Assembly (NCBI GenBank): GCA_030248215.1
Contig: JASANG010000295.1
Span: 434,001-498,000 of the forward strand
Direction of reading: 5' to 3'
Origin: Enoplolaimus lenunculus
Lineage: Eukaryota
Length of the DNA: 64,000 nt
The position numbers and the translations under genes were made by a program. A model generated the notes under the pieces. It was not told the origin of the DNA. It worked only from the letters and a program-made list of their open reading frames with translations, and made no database searches. How positions within the stretch are numbered: the first letter of the stretch is position 1; every line of letters begins with the position of its first letter. Positions 24,099-25,044 of the stretch are shown in pieces.

Positions 24099-24150
24099 TG
24101 GGCCAGGATTGGGCTCAATTCCAGTCATAATCAGCAAAATTCTCAATTTT
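24099..24150 (-). other. 2A-like (StopGo) peptide no. 2, variant motif
   Basis: KLRILLIMTGIEPNPG/P immediately before Gag. It has G rather than D at the first position of D(V/I)ExNPGP. Confidence 0.7.
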
Positions 24151-24605
24151 GTAGCATGGCGAGCGGTAATTCCTGGAATAATAATGGCGCTCACATCAAA
24201 CTCCCCAGTAACTGGAGATTGGTATGATCTTGTTGCATGGGCACTATCAAACAACCAGATTAAAACAAACAATACATCGAAGAGGAAAATATAGCCTCGT
24301 ATCCACATTGTTAGTGTAGGGTGTGAGGCGCTACGCGGTTCAGAGGCGGTCTTTGTAGTGCGTATCCTTTGCTGCAAAACTTGTTTCGTCATCGGTAAAC
24401 TCTGCATTGAAATTGCCGCTGAATAACTACAAAAAATAGTTTGAGTTCGTTCACTTCCTTTGTGATCTCTTCGGGGCGCCTTATGACGATTCCGAGTCAG
24501 CGAATTCTCACAATCTTTGGTTAAACCTTGAGACTGAGCTGTGACAACATGGTTTAAAAAATTACCATGACCTTCACACAAACCACCAATTCTGGGGCGG
24601 TGAAC

Positions 24606-24949
24606 CTTTAGAACTTCATTAGCTAAGGAACAAATAATACGGAAACGCTGCGACCCAAGATGTATACCGCCGTACCATCGTGTGACAATAACAAGAATAT
24701 TAAATGTGCCAGACATCTCTAACAACGCCAAAAGTCGCCTACCTGCACCATACTCGCCATCATCCTGGTAACCGGAGTCAAGTCCCATCTCCTTCACAAA
24801 CCGATATGCATAAATGTTATGTGTAGCACACGCTACCTTTCTACTTGAAGATAGCAAATTATCAACTACCGCATGTACATCATTAACTGAGAATACAGTT
24901 GCTATATGAGCCTGAAAAGTGCTTTTCTTAAACGAAAATGGTGAGCCAG
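24606..24949 (-). CDS. IMPACT/YigZ-family 'ancient' (UPF0029) domain within the retrotransposon ORF1
   Basis: GSPFSFKKSTFQAHIATVFSVNDVHAVVDNLLSSSRKVACATHNIYAYRF...QDDGEYGAGRRLLALL...NILVIVTRWYGGIHLGSQRFRII closely follows the animal IMPACT C-terminal domain (STFQAH, ATHNIYAYR, DDGE..AG.RLL.L, V.RWYGGI.LG..RF). It is in frame with 2A no. 2 and Gag. Confidence 0.92.
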
Positions 24950-24990
24950 AAAAAAATTATTTTCGCCGCTGGGCTTACAATCATGCAAAA

Positions 24991-25044
24991 AGGGCCCGGA
25001 TTTGATTCAATGTCGCCTGCCACTAAAAGGAGTAACCTCAGAGC
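24991..25044 (-). other. 2A (StopGo) peptide no. 1, canonical
   Basis: ALRLLLLVAGDIESNPG/P is a perfect D(V/I)ExNPGP motif with the upstream leucine-rich helix. Confidence 0.9.

What the first reader, a model, noticed from the sequence alone, without database searches (positions are those of the whole stretch)
24099..25044. LTR retrotransposon carrying an IMPACT (UPF0029) domain bracketed by two 2A peptides upstream of Gag
Seen: between the PBS and Gag of a CsRn1-type Gypsy element, ORF1 reads leader - GDIESNPGP - IMPACT ancient domain - spacer - GIEPNPGP - Gag. Only a single extra base in an A7 run (24950-24956) breaks the frame. The domain lies inside the LTRs and TSD and has no introns. 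Established: 2A motifs cause ribosomal StopGo and release separate proteins. Cellular IMPACT/Yih1 (RWD + UPF0029) antagonises activation of the eIF2-alpha kinase GCN2, mainly via RWD binding to GCN1. Inference: the element captured a host IMPACT domain and releases it as a free accessory protein in step with Gag, possibly to modulate the integrated stress response or as a nucleic-acid-binding factor. The RWD domain is absent, so a GCN2 role is speculative. I do not know of this architecture being described.
Basis: partly seen in the sequence, partly recalled or inferred. Interest (0 to 1): 0.92.

Follow-up and report, generated by a model that had tools for sequence, protein, structure and literature searches.

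The report
Gypsy retrotransposon with 2A-flanked IMPACT domain
This is a broken copy of a jumping gene that carries, ahead of its shell protein, a domain of the stress regulator IMPACT between two ribosome-skipping motifs that would likely release it as a separate accessory protein, a layout I found no report of.

Summary
A decayed CsRn1-type Ty3/Gypsy element (minus strand, 25694-19387; 4-bp target duplication, tRNA-Trp-type primer site, CHCC Gag) reads leader - 2A - IMPACT domain (UPF0029, E 3e-28, full length, no RWD) - spacer - hydrophobic segment - 2A - Gag. The frame break at 24950-24956 also stands in read contigs of two samples, but it is one of at least ten lesions.

New here: (1) four unbroken Gag relatives read hydrophobic leader - 2A - Gag without IMPACT, so the second 2A is a lineage trait and IMPACT an added module. 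(2) Read contigs point to a second, diverged element with IMPACT and Gag patches in the same order, which argues against a one-off insertion. (3) The predicted middle product is about 300 residues with a hydrophobic tail, not a bare domain. (4) The same RWD-less domain ends LINE-ORF1-like proteins. (5) The integrase tail carries a PWWP domain.

No open IMPACT-Gag protein was found; dN/dS and skipping are untested; the donor is unresolved. A GCN2 role is less likely than a role on the element's RNA. New variant of a known kind.

The parts
25695..25698 (-). Target-site duplication (CCGT), 5' side
25625..25694 (-). 5' LTR, 70 bp, TGT...ACA, lacks 159 central bases of the 3' LTR; 1 mismatch in the shared part
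25603..25620 (-). Primer binding site fitting the tRNA-Trp-type PBS given for CsRn1-like elements
   Evidence: against PMC2582038 section 6
24994..25527 (-). Leader 1: open frame from first long in-frame ATG to first skip site, two hydrophobic stretches; no Pfam hit
24991..25053 (-). 2A motif 1 (canonical GDIESNPG|P with leucine run)
24950..24956 (-). Frame break in a homopolymer run; also present in read contigs of both samples
   Evidence: no indel row here; contigs X1 and X2 22854-25649, X3 24375-25101
24609..24949 (-). IMPACT ancient domain (UPF0029), complete, without RWD
24309..24608 (-). Stop-free 100-codon spacer, basic, no known homologue
   Evidence: chance of no stop about 0.008
24249..24293 (-). 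Hydrophobic segment (possible membrane anchor or signal) ahead of the second 2A
   Evidence: Kyte-Doolittle 1.94 over 19, 3.06 over 11 residues
24099..24161 (-). 2A motif 2 (RHAT.LR..L...GIEPNPG|P), shared with four Gag relatives
23060..24101 (-). Gag (DUF7041, CHCC knuckle at 23185-23132); one stop, one frame change
23105..23111 (-). GGGAAAT heptamer at the gag-pol junction, likely -1 frameshift site
   Evidence: inference from frames
20378..23104 (-). Pol: protease (DTG, read by eye, no Pfam hit), RT, RNase H, integrase; several stops and frame changes
19759..19989 (-). PWWP domain in the same open frame as the integrase GPY/F-like tail
   Evidence: (E 9.9e-10, above cut-off)
19387..19615 (-). 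3' LTR, 229 bp, preceded by a purine-rich tract
19383..19386 (-). Target-site duplication (CCGT), 3' side

Best explanation
This is a dead copy of a CsRn1-type Gypsy element whose first gene holds an IMPACT ancient domain between two 2A motifs ahead of Gag, and in working relatives it would likely be translated as one frame that ribosome skipping splits into a leader, an IMPACT-bearing accessory protein and free Gag. Shown: the anatomy; the intact domain; four relatives that read hydrophobic leader - 2A - Gag without IMPACT. Inferred: the second 2A is the lineage's device to free Gag from a membrane-directed leader; the first 2A let an extra module be added without fusing it to either neighbour; the middle product (about 300 residues) is probably tethered to a membrane by its hydrophobic tail and made one-to-one with Gag at the site where the element's RNA is translated. 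For the domain's job I commit, at about 0.4 on its own, to binding or processing nucleic acid in the element's own RNA-ribosome-Gag complex through its invariant cleft, not to GCN1 competition.
For: Anatomy and chance. Domain intact: 21 of 21 columns that are at least 90% conserved in 81 homologues are kept on a long branch (0.92 and 1.49 changes per column); model pLDDT 97.6, fold matches only Yih1, TTHA1053 and YigZ at E under 0.001. Second element: the joints 23510>23991, 24014>24610 and 24692>24798 share one depth value in run X2 (37.9) and one in run X3 (13.2), i.e. one contig per run with Gag and IMPACT patches in the same order; excess depth equals 85 and 29 letters in all three runs, and the patches fall on the ATHNIYAY and TRWYGG...RF motifs. 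Lineage trait: 3 of the 4 Gag-matching proteins among the best 150, and P0225, carry the 2A about 105-113 residues from an N-terminal hydrophobic stretch; their leaders are homologous to each other (0-2 of 2000 shuffles in 6 of 6 pairs). Spacer open (p about 0.008) and leader frame open for 217 codons. Motif 1 is canonical; a G-for-D motif (AGIESNPGP, infectious flacherie virus) is listed at about 99% (PMC8623073 table passage). RWD-less UPF0029 also ends proteins that fold like LINE-1 ORF1p and is fused to HEPN_DZIP3, both nucleic-acid contexts.
Against: No protein with both IMPACT and Gag among the best 150 of 3546 hits in 1.84 billion representatives, among 81 hits of 245-781 residues or 96 longer candidates. 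The link to the second element passes through a 24-letter patch at 80% likeness, a kind of joint the tool flags as weak; in run X1 the Gag and IMPACT patches sit on contigs of different depth (101.1, 111.2); its frame is unknown; all three runs are one study and may include the source sample. Skipping is untested: only 43 of 580 retroelement 2As were highly active in one screen and D12 substitutions killed P2A-type peptides (10.64898/2026.09.24.754024); many eukaryotic 2A-like peptides lower protein output instead (10.64898/2026.06.17.732966). Outside the last 24 residues neither leader of this copy is detectably homologous to the relatives' leaders (976 and 1195 of 2000 shuffles as high). A contig of run X2 has a stop in the spacer. 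No nucleic-acid activity was tested.
Confidence: 0.55

Rival explanations
1. Counter-defence against the integrated stress response: the element's own 2A pauses cause ribosome collisions, and the released ancient domain damps GCN1-GCN2 signalling, for example by masking an RWD domain in trans.
For: StopGo sites form disomes (PMC12846837 passage); IMPACT/Yih1 is a GCN2 inhibitor (PMC7140605); diagnostic columns are host-like in 4 of 11, LINE-like in 1. That collisions activate GCN2 and that the two Yih1 domains close on each other is recalled, not tested.
Against: RWD is absent, and RWD alone inhibits Gcn2 while the ancient domain's function is unknown. No viral structure in BFVD matches the fold at E under 0.001.
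Confidence: 0.2
2. Passenger: a piece of IMPACT mRNA was picked up by template switching and has ridden along without function; only leader - 2A - Gag matters, started at an internal ATG ahead of the hydrophobic segment.
For: Four unbroken relatives lack IMPACT; no open IMPACT-Gag protein found; the only fully seen copy is dead and broken just before the domain; an ATG precedes the hydrophobic segment at 24308.
Against: 21 of 21 conserved columns kept; a second element under 80% alike overall matches best at the domain's motifs; a canonical 2A stands 13 residues before the domain; the spacer is open (p about 0.008).
Confidence: 0.15
3. The frame break is a programmed +1 shift on a U-run that meters IMPACT and Gag against the leader.
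For: The break is present in all 3 contigs that cover it, from two samples; homopolymer runs can slip (general knowledge).
Against: These contigs are 99.6% or more identical to the window and probably the same insertion; the copy has at least ten lesions; relatives make Gag from an unbroken frame.
Confidence: 0.05
4. On origin only: the domain came from a LINE whose ORF1 ends in IMPACT, by recombination between retroelements, not from the host gene.
For: 20 of 81 hits are RWD-less, ORF1-like proteins; sister position not rejected (p-AU 0.45); LINEs also carry 2As (PMC3708506).
Against: The ORF1-type clade excludes the window's domain with 100/99 support (99 in the 82-row quick tree); nesting with three of them is marginally rejected (p-AU 0.042); best identities are to RWD-bearing proteins (52%).
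Confidence: 0.25

Closest known systems
CsRn1 clade of Ty3/Gypsy (CsRn1, PwRn1, AgCR; PMC2582038, passages and section 6 read)
   Same: 4-bp duplication, tRNA-Trp-type PBS, CX2HX9CX3C Gag knuckle, PR-RT-RH-IN order, GPY/F-like tail, gag-pol overlap with a slippery heptamer, no env
   Different: Hydrophobic leader and two 2A motifs ahead of Gag, an IMPACT domain, and a PWWP domain behind integrase; the section read reports no chromodomain or env and mentions none of these
2A-bearing non-LTR retrotransposons (Ingi/L1Tc, CR1, L2, Rex1, Crack; PMC3708506, passages)
   Same: Leucine run plus GD(V/I)ExNPGP used near the start of a retroelement frame
   Different: Those are LINEs with one 2A ahead of the endonuclease-RT protein; here an LTR element has two, ahead of Gag, around a folded cargo domain
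2A peptides noted in LTR-like elements (10.64898/2026.09.24.754024 section 31; 10.64898/2026.06.17.732966 passages)
   Same: 2A-like motifs in LTR-type retroelements are already reported in passing
   Different: No leader-2A-Gag layout, clade or cargo is described in the text I read; the one placed example follows an RT. Their supplements were not visible and could list this lineage
Picornavirus multi-2A regions and rotavirus/totivirus [2A + dsRNA-binding] modules (PMC11512398, passages)
   Same: Works like these: 2As bracket an added module inside one frame
   Different: RNA viruses; the tracts between their 2As mostly have no recognisable function
Cellular IMPACT/Yih1 (PDB 6bqi) and bacterial YigZ (1vi7, 2cve)
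   Same: Same ancient domain, all invariant residues, same fold
   Different: No RWD, no YigZ C-terminal domain; sits in a retroelement
LINE-ORF1-like proteins ending in UPF0029
   Same: RWD-less IMPACT domain attached to a retroelement-type RNA-binding protein
   Different: Covalent C-terminal fusion, no 2A, separate clade; their genomic context was not seen here
Gypsy elements with captured domains (chromoviruses; orchid AlkB elements, PMC9289625 passages)
   Same: Domain gain in Gypsy elements is a known kind of event, biased to nucleic-acid and chromatin domains
   Different: Other domains, other positions, no StopGo

Membership tests
Ty3/Gypsy LTR retrotransposon | LTR pair with TG...CA ends, duplication, PBS, purine tract | tested here: met
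   5' LTR internally shortened
Ty3/Gypsy LTR retrotransposon | Order RT - RNase H - integrase after Gag and protease | tested here: met
   protease recognised by DTG motif only, no Pfam hit
CsRn1 clade | CX2HX9CX3C Gag knuckle | tested here: met
   10 of 10 Gag relatives checked too (P0230 not checked)
CsRn1 clade | tRNA-Trp-type PBS and 4-bp duplication | tested here: met
   against the PBS string in PMC2582038; not compared with the host's tRNA (none in window)
CsRn1 clade | RT groups with CsRn1 in a tree | not tested
   no named reference RT sequences were at hand
Class A 2A/StopGo | (G/H)D(V/I)ExNPGP core with hydrophobic upstream run - motif 1 | tested here: met
Class A 2A/StopGo | Same core - motif 2 | tested here: not met
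   G in place of D; it resembles the IFV-type variant, 3 of 4 relatives share it, the fourth has the D form
Class A 2A/StopGo | Measured skipping | not testable with these tools
   needs a reporter assay
IMPACT ancient domain (UPF0029) | Full profile match, invariant residues, fold | tested here: met
IMPACT/Yih1 GCN2 inhibitor | N-terminal RWD domain that binds GCN1 | tested here: not met
   no RWD hit in the leader or ORF at E up to 0.1
LINE-ORF1-IMPACT fusion type | Domain nests in that clade | tested here: inconclusive
   excluded at 100/99, sister position not rejected
Env-bearing (infectious) Gypsy element | env frame between integrase and 3' LTR | tested here: not met
   the integrase tail frame ends at 19534, inside the 3' LTR; no room for a third gene

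The most novel reading that the evidence does not exclude
The IMPACT ancient domain is a retroelement accessory factor recruited twice, by LINE ORF1 and by a StopGo-processed Gypsy lineage; here it is released, membrane-tethered, beside each Gag to protect the element's translating RNA from the stress that its own ribosome pauses provoke, while a built-in PWWP steers integration to methylated chromatin as LEDGF does for HIV.
Probability: 0.2. Interest if true: 0.87.

Novelty: new variant of a known kind. Interest (0 to 1): 0.64.

Why it matters
The ancient domain is conserved from bacteria to mammals and its function is still described as unknown (PMC7140605, PMC4503747). Finding it alone, intact, in selfish elements gives a natural RWD-free version to assay and points to RNA or ribosome biology. 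A Gypsy lineage that uses StopGo to cut Gag off a hydrophobic leader, and to plug in cargo, extends a virus-style expression trick to LTR elements, supplies new 2A variants, and offers a self-encoded PWWP reader as a candidate integration-targeting device.

Tried and rejected
No whole genome is held for the window, so copies could not be searched directly. Relatives with flanks: viral contigs gave none for the IMPACT domain, the Gag alignment or RT; the IMPACT alignment gave 1 locus, a YigZ-like gene at the edge of a prophage-like contig, unrelated; JGI metagenomes gave 1 short distant Gag contig. Longer proteins with IMPACT: 0 of 96 candidates (weak evidence). ESM Atlas: no usable hit for the relatives' leader or the integrase tail. 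No RNA holder listed. Lower or missing contig depth over the leader and IMPACT in run X3 is not used as evidence. Idea that both leader-2A blocks arose by duplication of the lineage's leader: not shown outside the 2A core (profile test 267 and 95 of 1000 shuffles; pairwise test). Assembly error at the A7 run: rejected. dN/dS: not possible; only 2 allelic changes fall in the domain, one silent and one not. The ORF1-like label was not supported by sequence search of the PDB (coiled-coil hits only) but was by fold. No complex prediction was run: the only partners at hand were RWD domains of other hosts. Earlier notes: nothing by sequence, by place, or for 2A plus Gypsy or PWWP plus integrase. A report of nuclease activity for a Leishmania IMPACT-like protein is recalled only; one search did not find it.

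Full report
What is there. The element lies on the minus strand from 25694 to 19387. Its ends are TGT...ACA, both flanked by CCGT; the 3' LTR is 229 bp, and the 5' LTR is 70 bp, lacks the central 159 bases and differs at 1 shared position. The primer site fits the tRNA-Trp-type string published for CsRn1-like elements, as do the 4-bp duplication and the CX2HX9CX3C knuckle (PMC2582038 section 6). RT, RNase H and integrase follow in Gypsy order. I did not build an RT tree, so clade membership rests on these hallmarks. The copy is dead: five in-frame stops are listed, and frame changes in Gag, protease (two), RNase H and the integrase tail are read, at least ten lesions with the one in question. 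A weak Runt hit elsewhere suggests an animal host.

The observation. UPF0029 matches over its whole length at E 2.7e-28 with no RWD. The domain keeps 21 of 21 columns that are at least 90% conserved among 81 homologues, models at pLDDT 97.6 from a 38-row alignment and matches only Yih1, TTHA1053 and YigZ in the PDB, and nothing in BFVD at E under 0.001. IMPACT, a 100-codon spacer, a hydrophobic segment, the second 2A and the start of Gag share one open frame; the chance of a stop-free spacer is about 0.008. The first 2A is in another frame, itself open for 217 codons, and the frames change in the run at 24950-24956, 13 residues after the skip site.

Is the break real? Three runs (two samples, one study, possibly including the source) hold the stretch. 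The three contigs that cover the run show no indel there, so it is not an assembly error. They are near-identical to the window and probably the same insertion, so they do not show that the break is conserved. One contig of run X2 has a stop in the spacer, as expected of decay.

Is IMPACT a family trait? At 80% likeness one search lists joints 23510>23991, 24014>24610 and 24692>24798 (15 of 31 joints were shown). They carry one depth value in X2 (37.9) and one in X3 (13.2), which I read as one contig per run with collinear patches in Gag and in IMPACT. The excess depth over the IMPACT bins equals 85 and 29 letters in all three runs, exactly these patches, and they encode the ATHNIYAY and TRWYGG...RF motifs. 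So a second element, under 80% alike over most of its length, appears to hold the domain ahead of Gag and is most alike at its conserved motifs, the pattern expected of selection on the protein. Against this: the link runs through a 24-letter patch, which the tool flags as weak; in X1 the Gag and IMPACT patches are on contigs of different depth; and the spacing, frame and dN/dS of that element remain unknown. No protein with both parts appears among the best 150 of 3546 hits in 1.84 billion representatives, among 81 hits of similar length or among 96 longer candidates.

The second 2A is a lineage trait. Of the 150 rows, 4 match the Gag part; 3 of them carry the same 2A, and the fourth starts downstream of it. 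One search added P0225 with the 2A and six distant Gags without NPGP. The four read hydrophobic N-terminus - about 105-113 residues - RHAT.LR.LL...G(D)(V/I)ExNPG|P - Gag, with no IMPACT; their leaders are homologous to one another without the 2A core (0-2 of 2000 shuffles, 6 of 6 pairs), but neither leader of the window is detectably so. Their DNA context was not seen, so a frame extending further upstream is not excluded.

Origin of the domain. Of the 81 hits, I labelled 20 as ORF1-like by reading and the other 61 as host-type (some lack an RWD label). These form a clade at 100/99 that excludes the window's domain (29 of 82 rows; 99 in the 82-row quick tree). The domain has a long branch and no supported neighbour; a sister position to the ORF1 clade is not rejected (p-AU 0.45), nesting with three of them marginally is (0.042). 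Independent capture from a cellular gene is favoured but not shown.

How it likely works. One frame, two skips, three products: a hydrophobic leader, a middle protein of about 300 residues, and Gag beginning with proline; Pol follows by a likely -1 shift at 23111. Motif 1 is canonical. Motif 2 has G for D; a like variant is listed at about 99% in a review table (PMC8623073), but D substitutions kill P2A-type peptides and only 43 of 580 retroelement 2As were highly active in one screen (10.64898/2026.09.24.754024), and many cellular 2A-like peptides lower output instead (10.64898/2026.06.17.732966). I put skipping at both sites at about 0.6. The middle product ends in a stretch with hydropathy 1.94 over 19 residues, so it is probably membrane-tethered, not free. 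2A-linked signal sequences that split products between ER and cytosol are known (PMC4981915, abstract). For the domain's job, the RWD that suffices for Gcn2 inhibition is missing and the ancient domain's function is stated as unknown (PMC7140605, PMC4503747). Its other RWD-less contexts are an RNA chaperone fold and HEPN fusions, and domains gained by Gypsy elements lean to nucleic-acid functions (PMC9289625). I therefore rank action on the element's own RNA complex (about 0.4) above damping of GCN2 (about 0.2), though StopGo sites do cause disomes (PMC12846837).

A second extra. A PWWP domain (E 9.9e-10) lies in frame behind the integrase tail, where chromoviruses have a chromodomain. That PWWP reads methylated H3K36, as in LEDGF, is recalled.

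Novelty. Searches of the held library: UPF0029 plus retrotransposon, 0 papers; UPF0029 alone, 5, none on mobile elements by listing; NPGP/retrotransposon/StopGo, 25 of 55 listed; skipping/LTR/Gag/signal peptide/Gypsy, 20 of 64 listed; IMPACT/YigZ terms, 25 of 34 listed; PWWP, 4 and 4 listed. None showed this layout. 2As in LTR-like elements are mentioned in two 2026 preprints, whose supplements I could not see and which may list this lineage; Repbase, GyDB and most subscription journals were not searched. What I read: passages of PMC12338488, PMC7140605, PMC4503747, PMC9289625, PMC12846837, PMC3708506, PMC8623073, PMC11512398 and 10.64898/2026.06.17.732966; passages plus one section each of PMC2582038 and 10.64898/2026.09.24.754024; abstract and opening of PMC4981915; listings for the rest.

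Verdict. Observation confirmed, interpretation partly supported. A new variant of a known kind: a CsRn1-type lineage with a 2A-released Gag leader, in which one branch has added an intact IMPACT domain and a PWWP. Interest 0.64; it would rise with an open copy and dN/dS under 1.

Noticed in passing
window 19759-19989 (-): PWWP domain (E 9.9e-10) in frame behind the integrase GPY/F-like tail, closest solved relatives DNMT3B and HDGF-related protein 2; aromatic positions look kept. Two paper searches (listings only) showed no retrotransposon-encoded PWWP. Deserves its own follow-up.
   Followed up: partly
proteins P0087, P0096, P0117, P0225: Unbroken CHCC Gag proteins with a conserved 104-113 residue leader (hydrophobic N-terminus, then 2A) of no known family; six more distant Gags have no NPGP.
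   Followed up: partly
proteins P0082-P0086, P0222, P0223: Tandem UPF0029 repeats (2-4), two of them with HEPN_DZIP3 and named from sea anemones.
   Followed up: no
joints 23098>23815, 23861>24103, 22002>23608, 23485>23632, 22846>23653: Further diverged relatives of this Gag in the same runs; one also matches the second 2A; no IMPACT patch is seen for them.
   Followed up: partly
window 26358-27326 (-): Decayed non-LTR retrotransposon tail (weak zf-RVT, E 0.0015) just outside the element.
   Followed up: partly
window 50852-51358 (-): Runt-domain-like frame (E 6.6e-6, just under cut-off); suggests an animal host.
   Followed up: no
window 28809-31253, 33530-34474, 37521-38009 (-): Long poly-glutamine frames with a 30-bp repeat at 29080-29695; a stretch near 30740-30900 recurs near 33610-33750; 30900-31450 looks low in sequence quality.
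   Followed up: no
window 700-3822 and 16399-17546: Tandem arrays: a unit of about 31 codons, and a 17/8-bp GGACAG-rich array.
   Followed up: no
window 19200-19330 and 25720-25900: Both flanks of the element are very high-copy repeats in the read contigs.
   Followed up: no
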